A DNA stretch of 64,000 nt. Source: a phage. Positions 1 through 15,000 of this stretch are shown here, piece after piece. Position 1 is the stretch's first letter. Each line of letters begins with the position of its first letter. Both the position numbers and the translations under genes were made by a program. The notes below the pieces were generated by a model, which ran no database searches, had not been told where the DNA came from, and saw only the letters and a list, made by a program, of their open reading frames with translations. The stretch lies in sequence record PX441839.1. One strand, 5' to 3'.

Positions 1-2769
1 ACACTGGAAATTCGGCAAGGTGCTCTGTATGTGCGCCCACAAGAGACCCAGATCTCTCAAGATCCTGCAAACAAGATTGAACTGAAACCTGACGGTATCT
101 TTGTAGAAACCGTAAAAGGTGATAAGGGAGATACAGGTGAGCAAGGACCAGCAGGTCCAGAAGGTCCTCAGGGTCCAGCAGGTAAAGACGGCGCACCTGG
201 TGTAGAAGGTCCTCGTGGACCAGAAGGTGAAAGAGGTCCGGCTGGAATCGGCATCAATGTTATTGCTCAGTTGGCAACTGTTGATCAGCTTCCTCCTGTA
301 GAGAACTACGAAGATGGTGACACCTTCGTTATTGATGGTCACTTCTGGACTAAAACTACAGTAGGTGATACATCCCAGTGGACTGATGTCGGATCTTTCA
401 TTGGACCAGAAGGTCTGGATGCCTATGAGGTTGCTGTACAAGATGGTTTCGAAGGTACAGTTGATGAATGGTTGGCAAGCCTTCGTGGTGCTGACGGTAT
501 CGGTCTGCAACTCTTAGGTTCATTCAGAAGCGTTGATGACCTCCCAATGGAAGATAACAAGGCAGGTGATGCCTATATCGTCCAAGAGCAGATGTGGGTT
601 TGGGACACTGTTCAGTGGGCACCTGTTGGACAGGTTGGCCCAGAAGGTAAGTCAGCGTATCAAGTTTGGTTGGCTAATGGTAACACTGGTTCGCAGAATG
701 ACTTCTTGGCATCCTTAAAAGGAGAGAAAGGAGACAAGGGCGATAAAGGTGATAAAGGAGACAAGGGTGAAGACGGTAAGAACGCCAACGCCGTAAACAT
801 TCTTGGATCTGTTGAAACCGAGGCTGACCTTCCTGACGGTGCTGATGCCGGGGACGCATACCTGATCGGAGAGAACGTATGGGTATCCGATGGCGCAGGT
901 AAATGGACAGACCTTGGCTCTTTCCGTGGTCCAGAAGGTCCTCGTGGAGTACCTGGTGAAAAGGGTGACAAGGGCGATACTGGTGCTCAAGGTGGTACAG
1001 GTAAGAGCAACTATGACCTCGCTGTAGAGGAAGGATTCACTGGAACTGTTGCCGAATATTTGGAATCCATCAAGGGTGAAAAAGGAGACCAAGGTCCACA
1101 AGGTCCTCGTGGACTGACCGGACCTAAAGGCGACAAAGGTGACACTGGAACAGGACTTACAGTTAAAGGATCTGTTGCATCTGTAGAAGACCTACCTGCT
1201 GCTGGAAATGCAGAAGGTGATGCCTATTTCGTTGGTACTCATATGTATGTTTTCCTGTCTGGTGCATGGGAAGATGTCGGTGAGTTGAAAGGTGAAAAAG
1301 GCGATAAGGGTGACACAGGACCTAAGGGAGATACAGGCCCACAGGGTCCAGCGGGTGAGCGTGGTCCTCAGGGTGTTCAAGGTCTTAAAGGCGACACTGG
1401 CCCAGTGGGTCCTCAAGGACCAGCAGGTAGGGACGGTGTAGACGGTACAAACGGAACCGATGGTAAAGACGGAACAGGTCTGATGCCAAAAGGCACCGTT
1501 GCAACTCAGGCGGATCTCCCTGCAACTGGTAATTCTATCGGTGATTTTTATACGGTAGAAGAGGAAGGAAGGGGTTACGCTTGGAACGGAACAGAGTGGA
1601 TCTACTCCGGTGTGGCTCAGGGTCCTCAAGGACCAGCGGGTGAAAACGGTGCTGATGGTGCTACAGGTCCTCAAGGCCCACAGGGTCCTAAGGGTGACAA
1701 AGGAGACATGGGGCAAGGTATTCTGCCGAAGGGAACTGTCCCGACTCAGGCTGACCTTCCTACCGAAAACAATGAAATTGGTGACTTCTATGTTGCTGAT
1801 GACACTGGAATCGGTTACGCTTGGAATGGCACAACCTTCATTAACTCTGGGATTTCTCGTGGTAAAGACGGGGAACAAGGTCCACAGGGTGAACAGGGTA
1901 TTCAAGGTGAGCAGGGTCCTGCTGGTCCTAAGGGAGATACGGGGGATACTGGTCCTCAAGGCCCACAGGGGGATATTGGCCCAGGTGTAGAAATCATCGG
2001 TAAGCTGAATGATCCTTCTGAACTTCCGGCAACCGGAGAACTTGGTCAAGGATACCTGATCGAGGGTGACTTCTGGGGTTGGACAGGTCAAGCTTACGAG
2101 AACTTGGGACAGATTCGCGGACCTGCGGGTCCGGTTGGTCCACAAGGGAACCCAGGTCCTGTAGGTGAGCAGGGTGTTCGTGGTGAGAAGGGTGATCAAG
2201 GCTCCTTATGGATCGTCTTTGGTAGAGAACCTACTCCTGCTGATGGTCGCGTAGGTGACTACTTCATGAACTCTTCCACTCTGGAGTTCTTCCGTAAGAC
2301 TTCTGCAACCAACTGGGCATCTCTTGGTTACATGGGTGGCGGTAACGTCTACGATGCACCTAAAGATGGGAAGCAGTACACCCGTTTAGATGGTGATTGG
2401 GAAGTTCTTTCTGTTACTGAGGCACCTGAGGACGGTGGGTACTACATCCGTACCAATGGTCAATGGCAAAAATTAGATCGTTACGACCTCCGTGTTGTTG
2501 AAACTACAGGTGCTATGGACGTATCTGTGAGTAACTGCTTCAAGGTTGACGGGACGGCTAATAAAACCATGTCTCTCACAGGACTCCCTCCTGACAGGGC
2601 GATGACTATTGTTATTCGCTTCTTGGGTAAAGGGGCGCAGTTGACTTGGCCTTCAAACCTTGCTTGGTCAAATGGTACACCTCCTGCTCTTGGCACAACC
2701 CGTACAGTGGTAACTCTGTTCTGGGACGGTGAATTCCTGACTGGGACTCAGGCGATGACTGTTGACTAA
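1..2769 (+). CDS. collagen-like repeat fiber protein (5-prime partial)
   Basis: ORF 31..2769 has no in-frame stop back to the window edge. Long Gly-X-Y tracts ([25 protein letters not shown]...) are interrupted by at least 6 copies of a ~50-aa module (DLP...GD.Y...W.W.G). TAA stop is followed by a terminator. Confidence 0.8.
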   Translation, partial: TLEIRQGALYVRPQETQISQDPANKIELKPDGIFVETVKGDKGDTGEQGPAGPEGPQGPAGKDGAPGVEGPRGPEGERGPAGIGINVIAQLATVDQLPPVENYEDGDTFVIDGHFWTKTTVGDTSQWTDVGSFIGPEGLDAYEVAVQDGFEGTVDEWLASLRGADGIGLQLLGSFRSVDDLPMEDNKAGDAYIVQEQMWVWDTVQWAPVGQVGPEGKSAYQVWLANGNTGSQNDFLASLKGEKGDKGDKGDKGDKGEDGKNANAVNILGSVETEADLPDGADAGDAYLIGENVWVSDGAGKWTDLGSFRGPEGPRGVPGEKGDKGDTGAQGGTGKSNYDLAVEEGFTGTVAEYLESIKGEKGDQGPQGPRGLTGPKGDKGDTGTGLTVKGSVASVEDLPAAGNAEGDAYFVGTHMYVFLSGAWEDVGELKGEKGDKGDTGPKGDTGPQGPAGERGPQGVQGLKGDTGPVGPQGPAGRDGVDGTNGTDGKDGTGLMPKGTVATQADLPATGNSIGDFYTVEEEGRGYAWNGTEWIYSGVAQGPQGPAGENGADGATGPQGPQGPKGDKGDMGQGILPKGTVPTQADLPTENNEIGDFYVADDTGIGYAWNGTTFINSGISRGKDGEQGPQGEQGIQGEQGPAGPKGDTGDTGPQGPQGDIGPGVEIIGKLNDPSELPATGELGQGYLIEGDFWGWTGQAYENLGQIRGPAGPVGPQGNPGPVGEQGVRGEKGDQGSLWIVFGREPTPADGRVGDYFMNSSTLEFFRKTSATNWASLGYMGGGNVYDAPKDGKQYTRLDGDWEVLSVTEAPEDGGYYIRTNGQWQKLDRYDLRVVETTGAMDVSVSNCFKVDGTANKTMSLTGLPPDRAMTIVIRFLGKGAQLTWPSNLAWSNGTPPALGTTRTVVTLFWDGEFLTGTQAMTVD

Positions 2770-2775
2770 TAAGCT

Positions 2776-2796
2776 GGGGGCTTCGGCCCCCTTTTT
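2776..2796 (+). terminator. rho-independent terminator
   Basis: GGGGGC-TTCG-GCCCCC hairpin followed by TTTTT, directly after the stop at 2769. Confidence 0.7.
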
Positions 2797-2810
2797 AAAA
2801 GGAGATTTAA

Positions 2811-3461
2811 ATGGCAGTAGATCCAAACAGCAAGATTGAAGCTTGGACACCCATGATCAGAATTTCTGACATGAAATATCCAGTTTACCTGCGTGACTAT
2901 CTTGAGGAGTACAAAAACGTCAGTATCGGGTCTTTCGTGTGGGAAAGCGGGATGCGTGAGGTTGGATACTTTAAAGTCCACGATGTAGAAATCCCTATTG
3001 GGGATGTAGTCGTAGAAGGTGAACCAGCCTATAACGAGGAAGATGAACTTTGGTATAAGACTTGGATTGTCAGGGATTTCACCGAAGAGGAGATTGCTCA
3101 CAATCTCTATATGGCAAAAGAGGACGCTAAGTCTCAAGCTTATCGAATTTTTACCAATGATCAATCTTCCGGTGTTCTGGTAGATGGAGATCAGTTTAAT
3201 GTTGAGCCTCGTGAGATTACCAACTTAAGAGGTACACTCGAACTTGCCAATTTAGCAGGTGATGAGGAGAAGTTTCTTGTTCGCAAGGCAGACTTTTCAA
3301 TTCTGGAGCTTACTGCAAAAGAGACTGTTGAAAAGGTCACAAAAATAATTCTAGAGCAAGGAAAGTTACACCAAGCCCTTCTGAGCCATGTAAAAGAAAT
3401 CATGGATGCGGAAGACAGTGATTTAATCCCACCAACCCCACACACTTTCTTAGGAGAATAA
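2811..3461 (+). CDS. hypothetical protein (structural module)
   Basis: 216-aa ORF, AAAGGAG RBS about 7 nt upstream of ATG, co-oriented with structural genes. Confidence 0.6.
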   Translation: MAVDPNSKIEAWTPMIRISDMKYPVYLRDYLEEYKNVSIGSFVWESGMREVGYFKVHDVEIPIGDVVVEGEPAYNEEDELWYKTWIVRDFTEEEIAHNLYMAKEDAKSQAYRIFTNDQSSGVLVDGDQFNVEPREITNLRGTLELANLAGDEEKFLVRKADFSILELTAKETVEKVTKIILEQGKLHQALLSHVKEIMDAEDSDLIPPTPHTFLGE

Positions 3462-3462
3462 T

Positions 3463-3813
3463 ATGTCTGCAATCGGCGGAACATCTTTAGGTCTGATTAC
3501 TGGCTATGCGATCATGGATCAGTCAACTGGTGAAACAAAAACCATCTCCGAGTTACTCAGTGGTGCTGGGGGCGGCACACCGGGTCCTGTTGGACCTAAG
3601 GGAGATCAGGGTGAAGTTGGACCTCAAGGACCTAAGGGCGACACAGGCCCTGCTGGACCGCAGGGTCCTCAAGGGGAGCAGGGTGTAGGTATTGCACATG
3701 CCAATACAAAAATTGATGGACGTAATGTAACCATTATGTTTACGATGACGGATAACACAGTGAAAGAAGTTGTTTTCACAATTCCTGAACCAACCCCGAC
3801 CCCCTCTGCCTGA
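3463..3813 (+). CDS. small collagen-like repeat protein
   Basis: 116 aa; Gly-X-Y tract [37 protein letters not shown]; AGGAG RBS; start overlaps previous stop (TAATATG). Confidence 0.65.
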   Translation: MSAIGGTSLGLITGYAIMDQSTGETKTISELLSGAGGGTPGPVGPKGDQGEVGPQGPKGDTGPAGPQGPQGEQGVGIAHANTKIDGRNVTIMFTMTDNTVKEVVFTIPEPTPTPSA

Positions 3814-7479: not shown

Positions 7480-8895
7480 ATGGCTTATAATGATAAGGTA
7501 GTTGAAGTTGAGGTCAACCTCGGCACCCAGCCTATTAGCACGGCAGGGTTTGAAACTCCGATGTTCCTTGCAATTCACAACGTATTCCCAGAGCGTGTGA
7601 GATTCTATATCTCCACGGAATCTATGGTGGAAGATGGTTTTGCAGTTGGATCTCCGGCACACCAGTTTGCAACAAACGCATTCATGGGTAACTTCAAGCC
7701 AAGCATGATTGCTATTGGTAGAATGGCTCAGTCTGCTGTCAAGGTAGATTTCACTGGCACAACCAACACTGATCGGGTTGTTGTTAACCTGACTGTAAAC
7801 AGGGTTGTAAAAGCTGTTCAGTTAACTCCGGCACCTGGTTCAACACCAGCGGCAATTGCAACTGCATTGGCAACTGCAATTACAGAAGACCAAGACCTCC
7901 CAACCATTACCGCAGTTGCTAACGGAACTTCTGTTACCATCACCGCAGGTGAAGGTGATGTGATGAGTGTTGGTAAGGGAGAGGGAAATTACAAGGTAGT
8001 TTCTGAATCACCGGAGACTGTGGCAACTGCACTTCCTCAAGTAATGGCAGAAAACCACGACTGGTATTTCCTGTCAACAGAGGCACGATCTGATGCAGAT
8101 ATTGTTGCAGCGGCGGAGTTCGCACAGGCAAACTACAAGCTACATGTTTTCAACAGTTCAGACCCCGATGCCTATGCACCGATGAATGTCAGTGCTTCTG
8201 TTTTTGACACCCTGAAAGCTCTGAGCTACACTTCTTTAGGAACAACTGATGCTGATGCGGATGTTGAGTTCACAGAAGGTTCAGTTGTTGGTGCGATGGC
8301 AGGTAATGACCCATCATATGGTGATTCTCTGCACCTGAAAACCATGCCTGGTATGAAGCCTTTCCAAGGTTCAGAAACCCAGCGTATGAATGCTTGGAAT
8401 AGGAACGCAAACACGTATCGTGCCATGTATGGCGGTAACAGCTACATCGAGGGTCGTGTTTCAAACTCTCAGTATGTTGACGTTATTCGCTTCTCACACT
8501 GGGTTAAATTCCGTATGGAAGAGTCCCTGTTTGCGTACATGAAGCGTCGTTCCGATATGGGTCTGTCAATGAAGATGTCAGACGCAGATCTTCCAGTAAT
8601 TAAATCTGTTCTGATGAACAACCCGATCAACATCGGTATCCGTAATGGCGGGATCTTGACTGGCTATGACTCTGTGAATAAGGTCATGTATGACCCGATT
8701 ATCACTGTGCCACGTCGAGCAGAGATCCCAACCAACGATCTTGCTAACCGTATCCTGCGTGATGTTAAAGTTGACTTAGTTTACAACAACTCACTGCATT
8801 ACGTCAAGATTCGTGCTTCTGTGGTTCTCGACCGTCCAGCAGGTCAAGGCACTAATGCCCAGACCCCTATGACCTCTTCCGCTGTAGGAGTGTAA
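7480..8895 (+). CDS. putative tail sheath protein
   Basis: 471 aa; assigned from gene order only (large protein, then 160-aa protein, then frameshifted chaperone, then tape measure); no sheath motif recognised. Confidence 0.6.
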   Translation: MAYNDKVVEVEVNLGTQPISTAGFETPMFLAIHNVFPERVRFYISTESMVEDGFAVGSPAHQFATNAFMGNFKPSMIAIGRMAQSAVKVDFTGTTNTDRVVVNLTVNRVVKAVQLTPAPGSTPAAIATALATAITEDQDLPTITAVANGTSVTITAGEGDVMSVGKGEGNYKVVSESPETVATALPQVMAENHDWYFLSTEARSDADIVAAAEFAQANYKLHVFNSSDPDAYAPMNVSASVFDTLKALSYTSLGTTDADADVEFTEGSVVGAMAGNDPSYGDSLHLKTMPGMKPFQGSETQRMNAWNRNANTYRAMYGGNSYIEGRVSNSQYVDVIRFSHWVKFRMEESLFAYMKRRSDMGLSMKMSDADLPVIKSVLMNNPINIGIRNGGILTGYDSVNKVMYDPIITVPRRAEIPTNDLANRILRDVKVDLVYNNSLHYVKIRASVVLDRPAGQGTNAQTPMTSSAVGV

Positions 8896-8898
8896 TGA

Positions 8899-9381
8899 AT
8901 GAGCACGAACGCATCTAAGATTATTACGTTTAATGCGTATGACCCAGAGAAAACTTTTCTCTACATGTTCGGTCAGAGAGTCAGCGGCTTCGCTGCTGAC
9001 ACCAAGATCGTCATCACCCGTAACAATGATAACATCATCCCCCATGTTGGTGTAGACGGAGAGATCAGTAACGCACTGGTACGTGACCGTTCTGGTGTGC
9101 TTACTGTTTCCTTACAGAACACTGCGCCGTGGAATGGTTATTTTGCACAATGGCAGAAACAGGCTGATGTGACAGGTCAGATTTATTTCCCTGTCCAGGT
9201 GGAAGGTTCACAGGGCCTGTCGATGAACACAATTGGGTGGATTCAGCGCCAACCTGACTTAACTTATGGTCAGGAAGTTGGGCAGATGGATTGGGAGATT
9301 GGTGTTCTTGACGCATGGCTGGCACCGGACAATATCCAAGGTGCTGCATTCGGACTCGCAGGTCTGATGGGCGTTATGTAA
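8899..9381 (+). CDS. putative tail tube protein
   Basis: 160 aa, directly downstream of the putative sheath and upstream of the chaperone; AGGAG RBS. Confidence 0.6.
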   Translation: MSTNASKIITFNAYDPEKTFLYMFGQRVSGFAADTKIVITRNNDNIIPHVGVDGEISNALVRDRSGVLTVSLQNTAPWNGYFAQWQKQADVTGQIYFPVQVEGSQGLSMNTIGWIQRQPDLTYGQEVGQMDWEIGVLDAWLAPDNIQGAAFGLAGLMGVM

Positions 9382-9457
9382 TAACTCGTGAGCCACAAGG
9401 ATGTGGCCTTTATTCACAGAAGGATTTAGCTACTTATCTGACACAGGAGTGTACACG

Positions 9458-9931
9458 ATGATTAAGTTTAAGAAGTCCACAGAGATTACTCTGTGTGGTG
9501 GAAAGAGATTTACAATTTATCACTGGTCGCCTAGCCAGGTTATCAGAAACATGCCGAAGATTGGGCGATTGGTTGCTGTACCTATGGGGACCATGGCAGG
9601 TTCTGCCCTCACTGGTGGGGAAAACTTCCAAGATGCTGTTCCAACAGCTATCCTCTACATCCTCGACCAAATTGAAGACGGCGGTGATGAGATTATTAAG
9701 CTGATGCTTGAAGGTGTCGAGGTTGACGGAATGGGCGGTCAAATCGATATTGACGAAGTGTTTGATGGTCATGTTAACGATCTGTTTACCCTGTTGCAGA
9801 AAGTCATTGAAGTGAACTACGGCTGTTTTTTCGGCCAGGGCGGTTTCGGGGCACTGACAGGACTGTTCCAAAAAATGGGACTGGTGAAGGCAGTGGAAGA
9901 ACTGGATCAGACTCTGGAAACGGAAGCCTGA
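9458..9931 (+). CDS. tail assembly chaperone (G-like)
   Basis: ATG 9458 with AGGAG 8 nt upstream (track ORF begins at 9401); immediately upstream of the tape measure gene; contains a slippery heptamer. Confidence 0.7.
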   Translation: MIKFKKSTEITLCGGKRFTIYHWSPSQVIRNMPKIGRLVAVPMGTMAGSALTGGENFQDAVPTAILYILDQIEDGGDEIIKLMLEGVEVDGMGGQIDIDEVFDGHVNDLFTLLQKVIEVNYGCFFGQGGFGALTGLFQKMGLVKAVEELDQTLETEA

Positions 9932-10197
9932 GACCGCTGAGTACGGTAGAGAAAGCAATAGAGTTCACGAGAAAGAACTCATCTCTTAAGTGGTTCGACT
10001 ACCTGTACCTTAGAGTTATGGAACGCTTCAACGTTGATGAGTTGTCAATAGAGTCTGGAGACATGGAGGACCTTCTCAAGAAGAATGAATATCTTGATAT
10101 GAAGGACTACATAGAGGAAGCGAACCATAAGGAGCAGGAAGAACAGCGGAAACGCGCTCAGGCCGAAGCCGACGCCCGTAGGCGAAGAGGCTGGTAA
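9458..10197 (+). CDS. tail assembly chaperone -1 frameshift fusion product (GT-like)
   Basis: The -1 frame is open from 9811 to a TAA at about 10195-10197; joined to the 0 frame at T_TTT_TTC 9826-9832; the extension is basic/acidic-rich and ends ...RKRAQAEADARRRRGW. Confidence 0.6.
9826..9832 (+). promoter_or_regulatory. -1 programmed ribosomal frameshift slippery site T_TTT_TTC
   Basis: X_XXY_YYZ heptamer in the 0 frame (codons TTT TTC) inside the window where the -1 frame is open. Confidence 0.6.
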
Positions 10198-10203
10198 AAC
10201 ATA

Positions 10204-10236
10204 GGCCACGGTCGAAAGACCCTGGCCTTTTTCTTT
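10204..10236 (+). terminator. terminator-like hairpin between chaperone and tape measure genes
   Basis: GGCCAcGGTC-GAAA-GACCcTGGCC imperfect hairpin followed by TTTTTCTTTTT. Confidence 0.4.
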
Positions 10237-10248
10237 TTGGAGGGTATA

Positions 10249-12726
10249 ATGGCTTCGAGCAACCAGATCGTAACTAAAACGGTCAACAGGACTACGTTTG
10301 AAGTTGATAAGGCTTCATATAATAGTACGATCAAGAAAATACGCAGCGTCAAGAAGGAATGGGAAAAGGCAGGTGAGCCTATCTCAAAACCTAAGAATGA
10401 CCCTGCAAAGCAGTACAGTAGATCTGCCGAACAGATCAAACTTGTGAATAAGCGTCTCATGGAGACCCGCAAGAGAGAAGAAGAACGTGCAGTTGCTCAT
10501 AGCCTTGCCCTCGCTAAGAAAGAGGCTCGTGCCAAAGAGCAGATTCAGAAGCAGTCTGCGGCTCGTATCCGTCAAACTATGAATCAGATGACTGCAAAGA
10601 ACCCGCAAGCCGCTGAAATGAGGAAGTTTTATCAGCAGCAGGAGAGGGAGGCCAAGAAAGCCAGTCGTCGTATGCAGAATACCTCTCCAACTCCACTTGG
10701 ACCAATGAATATTCAGCGTATGAACTCTGTTCAGCTTCCTCCTAGGGGTGGTGCTGGAACAGGTATGATTGGGAATCCTAACAAGCCATATTCTCCAGAG
10801 ACGATAGCCAGGCAGAACGCAGAAATGGCAAGAGCTATTCGTCAGCAATCCAAACAAAAAGATAAAGCTACAGCAGAGCAGACAAGAAAGGCAAGGATCG
10901 AAGCAAACAGGCAAGCACGTATTCAGGACGTGATGGCACAGCAAAGGATCAGACTGTCTAGCAAGTACGGAAGCACATACAACTCAACACTTGGAAGGGA
11001 TAGCGCTGGAAGAGGTATCCAAGACCTTAACAGACAGTTTAAATCCGGCGCTCTGTCGGCTGGACAGTATAGACAAAGCATACAAGCACTTGAACGCCAG
11101 TTTAGGGCATCTCAAGGTGCAGCAATGTCTTTCGGTAGTGTCTTGGAGAACGTCAGAACAGGACTTGTTAGTGTTGGTGCCGCATATGGGGTATTCAACT
11201 CTGGTGCCGCTGTTCTTCAACAAGGTCAGTTCTTCCAGGGGCTTGAGGCATCCATGCTTATGGTGTCTAACTCCTCAGAAGAGGCTGCGGGAAGAATACA
11301 GTTTGTCCGTGATGAGTCCTACAGATTAGGTCTTTCTCTTAAAGAAGCTTCTCAGGGATATACCCAGATGGCTATCGCGGGTAAAGAACTGATGAGCGGA
11401 GATCAGTTGAACAGTTTGTTCTCTGCGTACTCTGAATACTCAACAGCCTTGCAAGTTGACCCTGTAAGATTCCAGCGCGGTATCATGGCTATCCAGCAGA
11501 TGATGGGTAAAGGCCAGGTAATGGCGGAAGAATTGAAGGGGCAGTTGTCAGAAGCAATACCTGGTTCACTGGACATCTTTGTTAAGGCGGCACAGGAGGC
11601 ATTTAACGATACCTCTATAGATACTGCCAAATTCATGAAGATGATGGAAAAAGGTGAAATCACGGCTAAAAAGCTTATGCCTCTGATCGGCAAGTATTTC
11701 AGCGAAGCAGCTAACCGTGGTGGTGCTCTGGAGAAAGCCTTGCAGGGGAACCGTGTTGCTATGCAGCGTATGCAGCAGTCATGGGTTAACATGCAGAACG
11801 CTATCTTCATGGGTGGATTCGGCGATGCAATGACTAAGATATTCAACGACCTCTCTCGTCTCATGGAAACAAACATGGACACTGCAAAGAGTTTCGGTGA
11901 AATACTCGGTCAATTAATCACTGGTGCCTGGGATGCCGCAACCGCAGTATACAACGCATTCGTGTTCATGGGCAGGGCAATTGAATACTTTGCGGAGAAG
12001 CTGGGTTACGAGGGCGACATACTCTCTGAAATGTTCGACTGGGCAGCGTATGTTGCAGGTGTCGGTCTGTTTATCATGGCCCTTAAGAAGGTGTACGGGA
12101 TTGTCTCATCAATCGCGGGACTGAGAGGAGCATTAGGCGGAGTCCGAGACGCATTGGGCGGAGACTTGGCGTCGGGAGGCAGAGCAGGAGGTCCAAATAC
12201 CGGAGGAAGAGGAGGAAGTCCTTGGGGAAGACCTTCTGGAGGCAGCGGAGGAGGCTGGCTTGGTAAGATCGGGGGAGGTCTAAAAGGACTTGGTGGATTT
12301 GCTCTGAGAAGAAACCCATATGTTACCGCAGCGATGATCGTCGGTGGTGAACAGCTTCTCAGTGAGGAGGGCCAGGCCAGAGGAAAGGCAATAGCTGATG
12401 CTATGGCACCGTCAAGGGATCTTCAAAACCCACTTGCGGCTGCAACTGGCGGTGACATGTCAACTCTTATGGCCCTAGCGTGGAACAGCTTGTCAGGTGG
12501 AGGATCTAAACCATCTCCTAACATAGACCCAGACAGGTTAGCGCAGAACGCTGTAGTTCAGACTAACCCGTTCCCATACCCACTCCCGCTTGCGGCACAG
12601 CAACAGCAAGAAGGTAAGATTACGGTTGAAATCAAGGCTGGTGATCTTAAGCAGTATATTCGTGCGGTTGTTGATGAGAATAACATGATGAACTTTAACT
12701 TGTTAACTCAAGGTGGTCAAGGATAA
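10249..12726 (+). CDS. tail tape measure protein
   Basis: About 825 aa from ATG 10249 (GGAGGG RBS; track begins at TTG 10237); N-terminal K/E/R/Q-rich helical region, Gly-rich segment; directly after the frameshifted chaperone. Confidence 0.85.
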   Translation: MASSNQIVTKTVNRTTFEVDKASYNSTIKKIRSVKKEWEKAGEPISKPKNDPAKQYSRSAEQIKLVNKRLMETRKREEERAVAHSLALAKKEARAKEQIQKQSAARIRQTMNQMTAKNPQAAEMRKFYQQQEREAKKASRRMQNTSPTPLGPMNIQRMNSVQLPPRGGAGTGMIGNPNKPYSPETIARQNAEMARAIRQQSKQKDKATAEQTRKARIEANRQARIQDVMAQQRIRLSSKYGSTYNSTLGRDSAGRGIQDLNRQFKSGALSAGQYRQSIQALERQFRASQGAAMSFGSVLENVRTGLVSVGAAYGVFNSGAAVLQQGQFFQGLEASMLMVSNSSEEAAGRIQFVRDESYRLGLSLKEASQGYTQMAIAGKELMSGDQLNSLFSAYSEYSTALQVDPVRFQRGIMAIQQMMGKGQVMAEELKGQLSEAIPGSLDIFVKAAQEAFNDTSIDTAKFMKMMEKGEITAKKLMPLIGKYFSEAANRGGALEKALQGNRVAMQRMQQSWVNMQNAIFMGGFGDAMTKIFNDLSRLMETNMDTAKSFGEILGQLITGAWDAATAVYNAFVFMGRAIEYFAEKLGYEGDILSEMFDWAAYVAGVGLFIMALKKVYGIVSSIAGLRGALGGVRDALGGDLASGGRAGGPNTGGRGGSPWGRPSGGSGGGWLGKIGGGLKGLGGFALRRNPYVTAAMIVGGEQLLSEEGQARGKAIADAMAPSRDLQNPLAAATGGDMSTLMALAWNSLSGGGSKPSPNIDPDRLAQNAVVQTNPFPYPLPLAAQQQQEGKITVEIKAGDLKQYIRAVVDENNMMNFNLLTQGGQG

Positions 12727-14031: not shown

Positions 14032-15000
14032 ATGAGAGCGATGGAGAGGACATATACACTGGTTGTTGGTAGGCCAGTATATATCGGAGAGAAGCCTGTC
14101 AACATTGAAAAATATGTCAATACAAATACAGGCGATGCCTATAAGATTACAGACCTCCATATTGAATTTGAGGTTAAGAAGGACAACTCCAAGGAACCAA
14201 ACAAGGGGTATATTACTGTTTACAACTTGTCAGATGAGATGGTAAACTACCTAGATCAGAACCAAAGGGAATCCCTTGCAGTGATGCTCCATGCAGGATA
14301 CAATGGAGATGAGAAGTTAATATTCTCAGGGACTGTTGAGTATGTTCAGGACAGATTTGATGATGAGACAAGAGAGACCAAAATGATACTTGGTGACGCA
14401 ACCCTTAATCTCATGACGGCTCAAACTGCAAGGTCTTACCGTAAAGGGACTAACCTGAATGTTGTTCTTAATGACCTTATTTCTGATCTTAAGTTGCCGA
14501 AGGGGAGGGTTGTAAATTTCTCCGGTCAAACACTTCAACACTCTATGGCATTCTCTGGCACCGCATCACAAAACCTAGAAAATCTGGCGAGAAACACAGG
14601 ATCTACCTTCTCTGTACAAGATGGGGCGGTATACTGGACAAGAGAGGGTTCCAGATTTGAAAGCACGATGTTTGAGATATCCGAAGATGGCGGGATGGTT
14701 GGATCGCCAACACCAAAAAACCCCAAAACGGGCAAAAGAAGATTGGCACAAAGATCTGGAAAAGAGACCGTTGCCGATGCAAGTGAGAAGAAAAAGGCAG
14801 AGGTTAAGGAAGATGCTGGCCTATCTGTGACCACGCTCCTAAACGGAGCTATTCTCCCTGAGTCAACAATATACCTCAAGAGTAGAAGGTACACAGGGTT
14901 TTATAAGGTGGTGTCTTTGAGACATAGGGGTGGTTTTGAGTCAGGAGATTGGATCACTGAAATGGATCTTTCAGAAACCCGTGGGGAATTAATTAAGTAA
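14032..15000 (+). CDS. hypothetical tail/baseplate protein
   Basis: 322 aa; ATG immediately after the previous TAA; position in the baseplate module. Confidence 0.55.
   Translation: MRAMERTYTLVVGRPVYIGEKPVNIEKYVNTNTGDAYKITDLHIEFEVKKDNSKEPNKGYITVYNLSDEMVNYLDQNQRESLAVMLHAGYNGDEKLIFSGTVEYVQDRFDDETRETKMILGDATLNLMTAQTARSYRKGTNLNVVLNDLISDLKLPKGRVVNFSGQTLQHSMAFSGTASQNLENLARNTGSTFSVQDGAVYWTREGSRFESTMFEISEDGGMVGSPTPKNPKTGKRRLAQRSGKETVADASEKKKAEVKEDAGLSVTTLLNGAILPESTIYLKSRRYTGFYKVVSLRHRGGFESGDWITEMDLSETRGELIK

What the first reader, a model, noticed from the sequence alone, without database searches (positions are those of the whole stretch)
9811..10197. Programmed -1 ribosomal frameshift in the tail assembly chaperone gene
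The 0-frame chaperone ORF (9458..9931) contains the slippery heptamer T_TTT_TTC at 9826-9832. The -1 frame is open from 9811 to a TAA near 10195, encoding an extension of about 120 aa that ends just before the tape measure gene. This matches the conserved G/GT chaperone frameshift found upstream of tape measure genes in tailed phages.
Basis: partly seen in the sequence, partly recalled or inferred. Interest (0 to 1): 0.5.

Follow-up and report, generated by a model that had tools for sequence, protein, structure and literature searches.

The report
Tail chaperone G/GT -1 frameshift site
This is the standard programmed -1 ribosomal frameshift that lets a tailed phage make a short and a long tail-assembly chaperone from one gene; the call is correct and ordinary, although the public records I inspected for this phage group do not annotate it.

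Summary
The window comes from a Vequintavirinae (rV5/CR3-like) myophage, about 84-91% identical to Salmonella phage SSBI34. Gene G (9458..9931, Pfam Phage_TAC_15, E 9e-22) lies between the tail-tube gene and the tape-measure gene. It carries T_TTT_TTC at 9826-9832 in correct X_XXY_YYZ phase. The -1 frame is open from 9811 to TAA 10195-10197, which would give a 246-aa GT fusion (...NYGCFF-RPGRFRG...).

Comparative evidence is strong:
- In 32 related loci from at least 10 genera, the -1 frame always stays open across the G stop, and the +1 frame closes within 73 nt of it.
- In 20 distinct sequences the site is always NNT-TTT-TTC, while Phe codons elsewhere in the same genes run 85 TTC to 74 TTT.
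- Two distant relatives have different canonical heptamers at the same spot (G_GGA_AAG, A_AAT_TTT). This favours ribosomal over transcriptional slippage.
- The conserved T domain begins 25 codons upstream of the first start codon in its frame, and its substitutions are third-position biased.

No stimulatory hairpin or pseudoknot was found, which resembles lambda G/GT. None of the records inspected annotates the fusion. A 2025 paper describes the same poly-T site in sister families. Verdict: a new member of a known kind, of low-to-moderate interest.

The parts
7480..8895 (+). Tail sheath gene (context)
   Evidence: Homologues are annotated as tail sheath in the RefSeq records for CR9, CR3, phiTE and PVP-SE1.
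8899..9381 (+). Tail tube-like virion structural protein (context)
   Evidence: Pfam PF11681 KPP10_Orf10, E 2.4e-9. The homologue is annotated as a potential tail tube in Klebsiella phage 05F01.
9392..9407 (+). Terminator-like hairpin upstream of gene G
   Evidence: Consensus scan only.
9445..9449 (+). Shine-Dalgarno AGGAG for gene G
   Evidence: Read from the sequence; it lies 8 nt before ATG 9458.
9458..9931 (+). Gene G: tail assembly chaperone, 0-frame product of 157 aa
9826..9832 (+). Slippery heptamer T_TTT_TTC, the proposed -1 shift site
   Evidence: In phase. Invariant in 20 of 20 distinct related sequences, with three different preceding codons (TGT, CCT, AGT) all ending in T.
9832..10197 (+). 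T extension in the -1 frame (121 aa plus TAA). GT = join(9458..9832,9832..10197), 246 aa
   Evidence: Translation. tblastn conservation extends out to rV5 and PVP-SE1. Alignment and codon-position statistics support coding in this frame.
9841..9849 (+). CGGTTTCGG, a dual-coded invariant block (G-F-G in frame 0, R-F-R in frame -1)
   Evidence: GGT and TTC are the only codons used at these columns, as the alignment shows. Its role is unknown.
9932..10017 (+). Part of T after the G stop that has no ATG/GTG/TTG in frame, yet is conserved as protein
   Evidence: The first start codon in the -1 frame is ATG 10018. Substitutions at codon positions 1/2/3 are 1685/1718/3070.
10210..10238 (+). Terminator-like hairpin plus T-run between GT and the tape-measure gene
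   Evidence: Consensus scan. A terminator is annotated at the same place in the rV5 and phiTE records.
10249..12726 (+). Tape measure protein gene (context)
   Evidence: Pfam PF20155 TMP_3, E 8.9e-19. GGAGGG at 10239-10244.

Best explanation
Gene G (9458..9931) encodes the tail assembly chaperone of a Vequintavirinae myophage. Most ribosomes terminate at TGA 9929 and make the 157-aa G protein.

A minority slip back one base at T_TTT_TTC (9826-9832), with tRNA-Phe in both the P site (UUU) and the A site (UUC). Both tRNAs re-pair cognately with UUU UUU. Decoding then resumes at CGG (9832) and continues to TAA 10195-10197, giving a 246-aa GT fusion. GT consists of the folded chaperone domain (residues 1-125), an R-x-x-RFR motif, a Gly/Ser/Asp-rich linker and a conserved helical T domain.

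By analogy with lambda gpG/gpGT, G and the G part of GT would coat the tape-measure protein, and the T domain would recruit the tail-tube protein. A fixed, low GT:G ratio would be set by the intrinsic slip frequency. In this phage the site appears to work without an RNA-structure or Shine-Dalgarno stimulator.

Shown here: the sequence anatomy, its conservation, and coding selection on the T part. Inferred: that the slip actually occurs, its efficiency, and the binding partners.
For: **Anatomy.** The sequence features are exactly as described.

**Family and context.**
- Pfam Phage_TAC_15 E 8.9e-22 and PHROG 3840 E 5.8e-64.
- The tape-measure gene lies just downstream.

**Conserved frame architecture.** In all 32 related loci the -1 frame is open across the G stop, with 82-178 nt of overlap and 206-296 nt beyond (206 only where contig L010 ends). 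The +1 frame closes within 73 nt of the G stop. The loci span Certrevirus, Vequintavirus, Seunavirus, Mydovirus, Henunavirus, Av-05, Stephanstirmvirinae, Plateaulakevirus, Barbavirus and a Vibrio phage.

**Synonymous-site invariance.** The site is NNT-TTT-TTC in 20 of 20 distinct sequences. Elsewhere in the same ORFs Phe is 85 TTC to 74 TTT, and Cys is 14 TGT to 11 TGC.

**Narrow shift window.** The -1 frame opens only 9 nt upstream of the heptamer in rV5 and 3 nt upstream in 4L372D, so the shift window is very narrow on the 5' side.

**Motif turnover at the same place.** Barba21A has G_GGA_AAG and Vibrio phage 5P1c has A_AAT_TTT.

**T domain needs the fusion.**
- It is conserved upstream of the first in-frame start codon. 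That codon is extension codon 62 in the window, 79 in Hena1 and 83 in KpS8.
- Substitutions there are third-position biased, at 1685/1718/3070.

**No natural fusions.** All 49 homologues found among 5.8 billion proteins are G-only, 152-162 aa.

**Domain boundary.** The slip site sits where the folded domain ends; pLDDT is below 50 from residue 125 onward.

**Literature.**
- U_UU.U_UU.C belongs to the efficient class H_HH.U_UU.Y in E. coli and shifts above 0.1% without stimulators (PMC4066793).
- The same GTTTTT site is proposed for the related Vandenendeviridae and Andersonviridae (PMC12846349).
Against: - There is no experimental evidence (fusion protein, reporter assay or ribosome profiling) for this phage or its subfamily in the papers I could search.
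- No downstream stimulatory structure was found. Fold z-scores in the window are -0.01 to -1.06. RNAalifold gives an empty consensus for 19 sequences and no covariation in the 8-sequence subgroup.
- The window has no SD-like element upstream (GAAGT where some relatives have GGAGG), so efficiency may be low.
- A six-T run could also support some transcriptional slippage, which would give an identical protein.
Confidence: 0.88

Rival explanations
1. Transcriptional slippage: RNA polymerase adds one extra U in the six-T run (9826-9831). A fraction of mRNAs then encode GT in a single frame, giving the same protein as a -1 ribosomal slip.
For: The site is a homopolymer run. One inserted U gives exactly the ...CFF-RPGR... 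product. Sharma et al. note that U7 and A7 runs are avoided in genes, possibly because of transcriptional slippage.
Against: - The run is only six bases. From general knowledge, efficient slippage by bacterial RNA polymerase usually needs longer runs.
- The run is never lengthened to T7 in 20 distinct sequences.
- Distant homologues have non-homopolymeric but canonical ribosomal heptamers at the same place: G_GGA_AAG and A_AAT_TTT.
Confidence: 0.05
2. There is no recoding. The downstream ORF is an independent small gene (ATG 10018..10197, 59 aa), as annotated in CR3, CR9, phiTE, KaOmega and A5-4.
For: Public records annotate such short 'hypothetical proteins'. PHROGs 10409 and 8811 are built from them.
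Against: - Protein conservation and third-position-biased substitution extend 25 or more codons upstream of ATG 10018, where the frame has no ATG, GTG or TTG.
- In KpS8 and Hena1 the first start codon lies 79-83 codons into the extension, deep inside the conserved domain.
- The annotated start positions differ among relatives.
- No Shine-Dalgarno sequence precedes 10018.
- The -1 frame stays open back to the heptamer in every genome.
Confidence: 0.04
3. The -1 shift occurs elsewhere in the 9811-9931 overlap, for example on the A-run at 9870-9875 (CAA AAA ATG), and not at T_TTT_TTC.
For: The overlap is 118 nt long and contains an A6 run. A_AA.A tetramers are weakly shifty in E. coli.
Against: - The A-run is not in X_XXY_YYZ phase and is not conserved. 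rV5 has CAGCAGATG at that position.
- T_TTT_TTC is the only in-phase canonical heptamer in the overlap in the window and in most loci. The four extra in-phase heptamers are C_CCT_TTT abutting it in Schickermooser, W22 and 05F01, and A_AAC_CCA in 05F01.
- The R-x-x-RFR motif encoded just after the heptamer in the -1 frame is conserved.
Confidence: 0.03

Closest known systems
Bacteriophage lambda gpG/gpGT tail assembly chaperones (Levin, Hendrix and Casjens 1993; Xu, Hendrix and Duda 2004, 2013, 2014; as summarised in PMC5009743)
   Same: Two overlapping ORFs lie immediately upstream of the tape-measure gene. A -1 slip on a canonical heptamer near the 3' end of G makes a minor GT fusion, and neither case needs a stimulatory RNA structure (for lambda this last point is from general knowledge). 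In lambda the G:GT ratio is about 30:1, the G part binds the tape-measure protein, and the T domain binds the major tail protein.
   Different: - The heptamer is T_TTT_TTC, not G_GGA_AAG, although the distant relative Barba21A does have G_GGA_AAG.
- This is a contractile-tail phage.
- The G protein belongs to a different Pfam chaperone family (Phage_TAC_15).
- No direct sequence similarity to lambda G or T was tested or seen.
- Efficiency and binding partners are untested here.
-1 frameshift at an invariant GTTTTT motif in the tail-assembly-chaperone locus of Vandenendeviridae (Pakpunavirus Adele) and Andersonviridae (PMC12846349, Dec 2025; Moogle announcement PMC4319497)
   Same: Both are large virulent myophages said to be related to Vequintavirinae. 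[quoted passage not shown] The argument for the frameshift is the same: a universally open -1 frame. The window sequence TG-TTTTTT-C contains that GTTTTT motif.
   Different: The passages of that paper I retrieved analyse the locus in Vandenendeviridae and Andersonviridae and do not mention it for Vequintavirinae or Stephanstirmvirinae. tblastn with the window and rV5 G proteins did not reach those families, so homology of the site itself is inferred and not shown.
P2 E/E+E' tail chaperone frameshift in a contractile-tail phage (Christie et al. 2002, cited from memory; PMC5009743 states that efficiency in P2-like phages is 2-3 fold higher than in lambda)
   Same: A myovirus tail gene cluster in the order sheath, tube, G/GT-like pair, tape measure, with a -1 frameshift.
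   Different: No sequence relationship was tested here. P2 is a small temperate phage, whereas this one is a lytic phage of about 140 kb.
Stimulated bacterial -1 frameshift sites (dnaX, IS3/IS911 family)
   Same: The same tandem-slippage mechanism on an X_XXY_YYZ heptamer. U_UU.U_UU.C is also used by some IS elements.
   Different: Those sites rely on an upstream SD-like element and/or a downstream hairpin or pseudoknot. Neither was found for the window. Some relatives do have GGAGG 13 nt upstream.

Membership tests
Phage tail assembly chaperone G/GT programmed -1 frameshift (lambda-type) | The gene pair is located between the major tail/tail tube gene and the tape-measure gene | tested here: met
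   The order is sheath 7480-8895, tube-like 8899-9381, G 9458-9931, T to 10197, then tape measure 10249-12726 with Pfam TMP_3 E 8.9e-19. RefSeq annotations of homologues agree.
Phage tail assembly chaperone G/GT programmed -1 frameshift (lambda-type) | The downstream ORF overlaps the 3' end of G in the -1 frame, and this architecture is conserved among diverged relatives | tested here: met
   The overlap is 118 nt in the window. In 32 of 32 related loci the -1 frame is open across the G stop, and the +1 frame closes within 73 nt of it.
Phage tail assembly chaperone G/GT programmed -1 frameshift (lambda-type) | A canonical slippery heptamer X_XXY_YYZ lies in 0-frame phase within the overlap | tested here: met
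   T_TTT_TTC at 9826-9832. It is invariant at synonymous sites in 20 of 20 distinct sequences. Two distant relatives have other canonical heptamers at the same place.
Phage tail assembly chaperone G/GT programmed -1 frameshift (lambda-type) | The T part is a real coding sequence that cannot be translated on its own | tested here: met
   There is no ATG, GTG or TTG in frame from 9811 to 10017, yet the conserved domain starts around 9940. Codon-position substitutions are 1685/1718/3070. tblastn reaches rV5 at E 9e-10.
Phage tail assembly chaperone G/GT programmed -1 frameshift (lambda-type) | The G protein belongs to a tail-assembly-chaperone family by sequence and fold | tested here: met
Phage tail assembly chaperone G/GT programmed -1 frameshift (lambda-type) | A GT fusion protein is actually produced at a low, fixed ratio to G and is required for tail assembly | not testable with these tools
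   This needs a western blot or mass spectrometry, a reporter assay and genetics. No such data for this subfamily were found in the papers searched.
Stimulator-dependent bacterial -1 frameshift (dnaX / IS3 type) | A downstream hairpin or pseudoknot 5-9 nt after the heptamer, and/or an SD-like element 10-14 nt upstream | tested here: not met
   Fold z-scores are -0.56, -1.06 and -0.01 in the window. The consensus structure is empty across 19 sequences, and no pair in the close subgroup covaries. The sequence upstream in the window is GAAGT, not GGAGG.
Programmed transcriptional slippage | A homopolymer run is the conserved element at the recoding site across homologues | tested here: not met
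   Barba21A and Vibrio phage 5P1c have G_GGA_AAG and A_AAT_TTT at the homologous place. The run is fixed at six T followed by C in all 20 other distinct sequences.

The most novel reading that the evidence does not exclude
The invariant CGGUUUCGG block 8 nt downstream of the heptamer (9841-9849) might be more than a by-product of dual coding. Together with the nucleotide-conserved AACUACGG upstream, it could be a structure-free cis element that tunes slippage at the poly-U site. Possible routes are mRNA-ribosome contacts at the entry channel, or a nascent-peptide effect of the R-x-x-RFR or G-F-G residues. That would be a new kind of stimulator for phage G/GT frameshifting. Alternatively, GT output could come from a mixture of transcriptional and ribosomal slippage on the same U6 run.
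Probability: 0.08. Interest if true: 0.45.

Novelty: new member of a known kind. Interest (0 to 1): 0.25.

Why it matters
The main value is for annotation. In every record I inspected from Vequintavirinae, Stephanstirmvirinae and their relatives, the locus is filed as a chaperone plus one or two unrelated 'hypothetical proteins' with inconsistent starts. About 500 records in the phage collection carry a homologous G gene, and many of these phages are candidates for therapy or biocontrol. The downstream ORFs should be merged with G into a single ribosomal-slippage CDS.

The comparison also gives a clean evolutionary example. The position and frame logic of the slip site are retained across very diverged myophages while the heptamer itself turns over (T_TTT_TTC, G_GGA_AAG, A_AAT_TTT). 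It also extends to this subfamily a poly-T site recently proposed for two sister families. It does not change what is understood about the mechanism.

Tried and rejected
- **Downstream stimulatory structure.** I folded 9826-9935, 9833-9885 and 9833-9900, plus the equivalent 68-nt stretches of 10 relatives. All z-scores fell between -1.69 and +1.49. RNAalifold on 19 sequences returned no pairs. On the 8 closest sequences it returned only a weak G-U-rich helix with no compensatory change. Rejected.
- **Upstream SD-like stimulator.** GGAGG lies 13 nt upstream in rV5, Av-05, Schickermooser and 05F01. It is absent from the window and from Certrevirus, so it does not explain the window.
- **A-run at 9870-9875 as the shift site.** It is out of phase and not conserved.
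- **Natural in-frame G-T fusions.** A search with the fused 246-aa protein against 5.8 billion proteins returned only G-length proteins.
- **Structure of the fusion.** The T part folded alone gave a low-confidence, mostly helical model with pLDDT 57.6, and I did not use it further.
- **Felix O1-like chaperones.** tblastn with the rV5 G protein did not reach them.
- **Literature.** The rV5, phiTE, phi92, CB7 and SSBI34 papers do not mention a frameshift. Vladimirov et al. 2022, on T4-like chaperones, is not held.

Full report
**1. The observation**

- An ORF runs from ATG 9458, with AGGAG 8 nt upstream, to TGA 9929-9931 and encodes 157 aa.
- Its 0-frame codons around the site are TGT TTT TTC (9824-9832). 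T_TTT_TTC at 9826-9832 is therefore a canonical X_XXY_YYZ heptamer in the correct phase.
- The -1 frame has a stop at 9808-9810 and is then open to TAA 10195-10197.
- Slipping at the heptamer gives ...NYGCFF-RPGRFRG... and a 246-aa fusion (125 + 121 aa), written as join(9458..9832,9832..10197).
- The next gene starts at ATG 10249 and is the tape-measure protein (Pfam TMP_3, E 8.9e-19).

As an internal control I counted in-phase canonical heptamers in all window ORFs of at least 100 aa. There are 106. Only this one, and one in a spurious ORF nested in the tape-measure gene, is followed by an open -1 frame of 120 or more codons.

**2. What the locus is**

The window is a Vequintavirinae myophage.
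- The 1.1 kb around the site is 90.6% identical to Salmonella phage SSBI34, and the first 25 kb is about 84% identical over 88% of its length.
- More distant DNA matches are to Certrevirus phages (CR3, CR9, phiTE) and other rV5-like phages.
- The gene order is sheath, tube-like protein, G, T, tape measure, Dit-like protein.

G matches two chaperone families: Pfam PF21822 Phage_TAC_15 (E 8.9e-22, 78 bits against a cut-off of 22) and PHROG 3840 'tail assembly chaperone' (E 5.8e-64).

An AlphaFold model of G built from 25 sequences has a mean pLDDT of 65.5. It shows a folded domain over residues 1-125 and a low-confidence tail from residue 125 on, so the slip site sits at the domain boundary.
- Foldseek and a sequence search of the PDB gave nothing significant.

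**3. Comparative evidence for recoding**

I fetched 31 related loci from annotated phage records and IMG/VR contigs and analysed them together with the window (32 loci in all). They cover Certrevirus, Vequintavirus, Seunavirus, Mydovirus, Henunavirus, Av-05, unclassified Vequintavirinae, Stephanstirmvirinae (Phapecoctavirus, Justusliebigvirus, 05F01), Plateaulakevirus, Barbavirus and a Vibrio phage.

- **Frame architecture.** In every locus the -1 frame is open across the G stop, with 82-178 nt of overlap and 206-296 nt beyond (206 only where contig L010 ends). The +1 frame always closes within 73 nt of the G stop.
- **Heptamer invariance.** In all 20 distinct Vequintavirinae, Stephanstirmvirinae and Plateaulakevirus sequences the site is NNT-TTT-TTC. 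The preceding residue varies (Cys TGT, Pro CCT, Ser AGT) but its codon always ends in T. Elsewhere in the same G ORFs Phe is 85 TTC to 74 TTT and Cys is 14 TGT to 11 TGC. Some of these G proteins are only about 30% identical, so this synonymous-site invariance is not explained by protein conservation.
- **Narrow window.** In rV5 the -1 frame opens only 9 nt upstream of the heptamer, and in 4L372D only 3 nt upstream. This pins the shift site from the 5' side.
- **Motif turnover.** In the two most distant relatives the FF dipeptide is gone, but a different canonical in-phase heptamer occupies the same place. Barba21A has G_GGA_AAG, which is the lambda motif, and Vibrio phage 5P1c has A_AAT_TTT. 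Retention of a slippery site with a changed sequence is the pattern expected for selected ribosomal frameshifting. It argues against transcriptional slippage as the conserved mechanism.

**4. The T part is a real protein that needs the fusion**

The -1-frame extension aligns across all groups. It has four parts:
- a basic R-x-x-RFR motif right after the slip;
- a Gly/Ser/Asp-rich linker, which is the zone overlapping G;
- a conserved domain (LSTVEKAIEFTRKNSSLKWFDYLYLRV...GDMEDLLKKNEYLDMKDY);
- a basic tail.

In the window the first ATG, GTG or TTG in this frame is ATG 10018, which is extension codon 62 and lies 25 codons inside the conserved domain. In Hena1 the first start codon is at extension codon 79, and in KpS8 at 83.

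Substitutions between homologues at -1-frame codon positions 1/2/3:

| Region of the extension | Position 1 | Position 2 | Position 3 |
|---|---|---|---|
| After the G stop, before ATG 10018 | 1685 | 1718 | 3070 |
| After ATG 10018 | 4392 | 3382 | 6475 |
| Zone overlapping G | 2455 | 2282 | 1766 |

The first two rows show purifying selection on this frame. In the overlap the pattern follows the G frame instead, which fits a weakly constrained linker.

tblastn with the extension reaches rV5 (E 9e-10) with the alignment starting at residue 4. A search of 5.8 billion proteins with the fused sequence returned 49 homologues. All were G-only, 152-162 aa, and none was a natural in-frame fusion.

**5. 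Stimulators**

I found none.
- Minimum-free-energy z-scores in the window are -0.56, -1.06 and -0.01. In 10 relatives they range from -1.69 to +1.49.
- RNAalifold finds no pairs across 19 sequences. In the 8 closest it finds only a G-U-rich helix without covariation.
- An SD-like GGAGG lies 13 nt upstream of the heptamer in rV5, Av-05, Schickermooser and 05F01. The window and Certrevirus have GAAGT there.

This is compatible with the class. From general knowledge, lambda G/GT works at a few percent without known stimulators. Atkins et al. give a G:GT ratio of 30:1. Sharma et al. place U_UU.U_UU.C in the efficient E. coli class H_HH.U_UU.Y, with more than 0.1% shifting in the absence of stimulators and cognate A-site re-pairing.

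One unexplained detail is CGGTTTCGG (9841-9849), which is invariant at 0-frame synonymous sites in nearly all loci. Dual coding (G-F-G in frame 0, R-F-R in frame -1) is a sufficient explanation, but a cis role cannot be excluded.

**6. Mechanism proposed**

tRNA-Phe occupies both the P site (UUU) and the A site (UUC). Both slip one base 5' onto UUU UUU, and decoding resumes at CGG 9832. Most ribosomes do not slip; they terminate at 9929 and make G.

By analogy with lambda (PMC5009743), G and the G part of GT bind the tape-measure protein, and the T domain recruits the tube protein. The chaperones then leave the finished tail.

Shown here: the anatomy, the conservation and the coding constraint. 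Inferred: the occurrence and efficiency of the slip, and the binding partners.

**7. Rivals**

- **Transcriptional slippage on the T6 run** would give the same protein. It is disfavoured by the short, never-lengthened run and by the non-homopolymeric heptamers in distant homologues.
- **Independent translation of a 59-aa ORF from ATG 10018**, as annotated in relatives, is contradicted by conservation upstream of any start codon and by the inconsistent annotated starts.
- **A shift on the A-run at 9870-9875** is unlikely because that run is out of phase and not conserved.
- **A sequencing error or pseudogene** is excluded because the architecture is universal.

**8. Comparison with what is known, and novelty**

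This is the lambda-type G/GT tail-assembly-chaperone frameshift (Xu, Hendrix and Duda 2004). All sequence-level defining features were tested and met. Production of the fusion protein cannot be tested with these tools.

None of the 21 annotated public records I opened for this clade carries a joined CDS. They list a chaperone plus one or two 'hypothetical proteins', or nothing. The rV5, phiTE, phi92, CB7 and SSBI34 papers do not mention a frameshift.

A December 2025 paper argues for the same -1 frameshift at an invariant GTTTTT motif in Vandenendeviridae and Andersonviridae. It describes both as relatives of Vequintavirinae (PMC12846349). The Moogle genome announcement noted a chaperone frameshift in 2015.

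The finding is therefore a correct and well-supported call of a known kind of element, in a lineage where it has apparently not been annotated or described. Its interest is mainly for annotation and for the evolutionary example of heptamer turnover.

Noticed in passing
window 9841-9849: CGGTTTCGG, 8 nt downstream of the heptamer, is invariant at 0-frame synonymous sites in nearly all Vequintavirinae and Stephanstirmvirinae loci (GGT and TTC are the only codons used). It encodes G-F-G in frame 0 and R-F-R in frame -1. It is absent from 4L372D, Barba21A and 5P1c. It may reflect dual coding or a cis element.
   Followed up: partly
L005 (rV5) 1468-1472; also L018, L019, L022, L031: An SD-like GGAGG lies 13 nt upstream of the heptamer in Vequintavirus, Av-05 and Stephanstirmvirinae phages. 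That spacing could stimulate -1 slippage. The window and Certrevirus have GAAGT at this position.
   Followed up: partly
window 9392-9407 and 10210-10238: Terminator-like hairpins flank the G/GT gene, one after the tube gene and one between GT and the tape-measure gene. The rV5 and phiTE records annotate a terminator at the second position. This suggests transcriptional attenuation before the tape-measure gene.
   Followed up: no
L004 (phiTE) 2449-3549; L029 (Barba21A) 2105-2743; L002 (CR9) 2399-2624: The short gap between GT and the tape-measure gene is variable. phiTE carries two extra ORFs there, Barba21A has an HNH endonuclease on the opposite strand, and CR9 has a longer spacer.
   Followed up: no
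window 9870-9875: An A6 run (CAA AAA ATG) lies inside the G/T overlap. It is out of X_XXY_YYZ phase and is not conserved in relatives.
   Followed up: yes
phage collection records MG0656xx ('Campylobacter phage C2, C7, C11, C14, A13b ...'): About 23 records labelled as Campylobacter phages carry G genes 98-100% identical to E. coli phage rV5. They are probably rV5-like coliphages filed under the wrong host. A 2-kb record named 'Enterococcus phage IME_EF3' also matches this locus.
   Followed up: no
L001 (SSBI34) 8725-9100, homologue of window 14032-15000: The SSBI34 record names this tail/baseplate-region protein 'fatty oxidation complex, alpha subunit'. Its position in the tail module and its CR9 homologue suggest a structural protein, so this is a likely misannotation.
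   Followed up: no
window 9401-9457: the ORF listing extends gene G to an upstream ATG at 9401. KaOmega and ABPH49 annotate similarly extended starts. The extension overlaps the terminator-like hairpin and is not conserved as protein, so ATG 9458 with its AGGAG is the likely start.
   Followed up: partly
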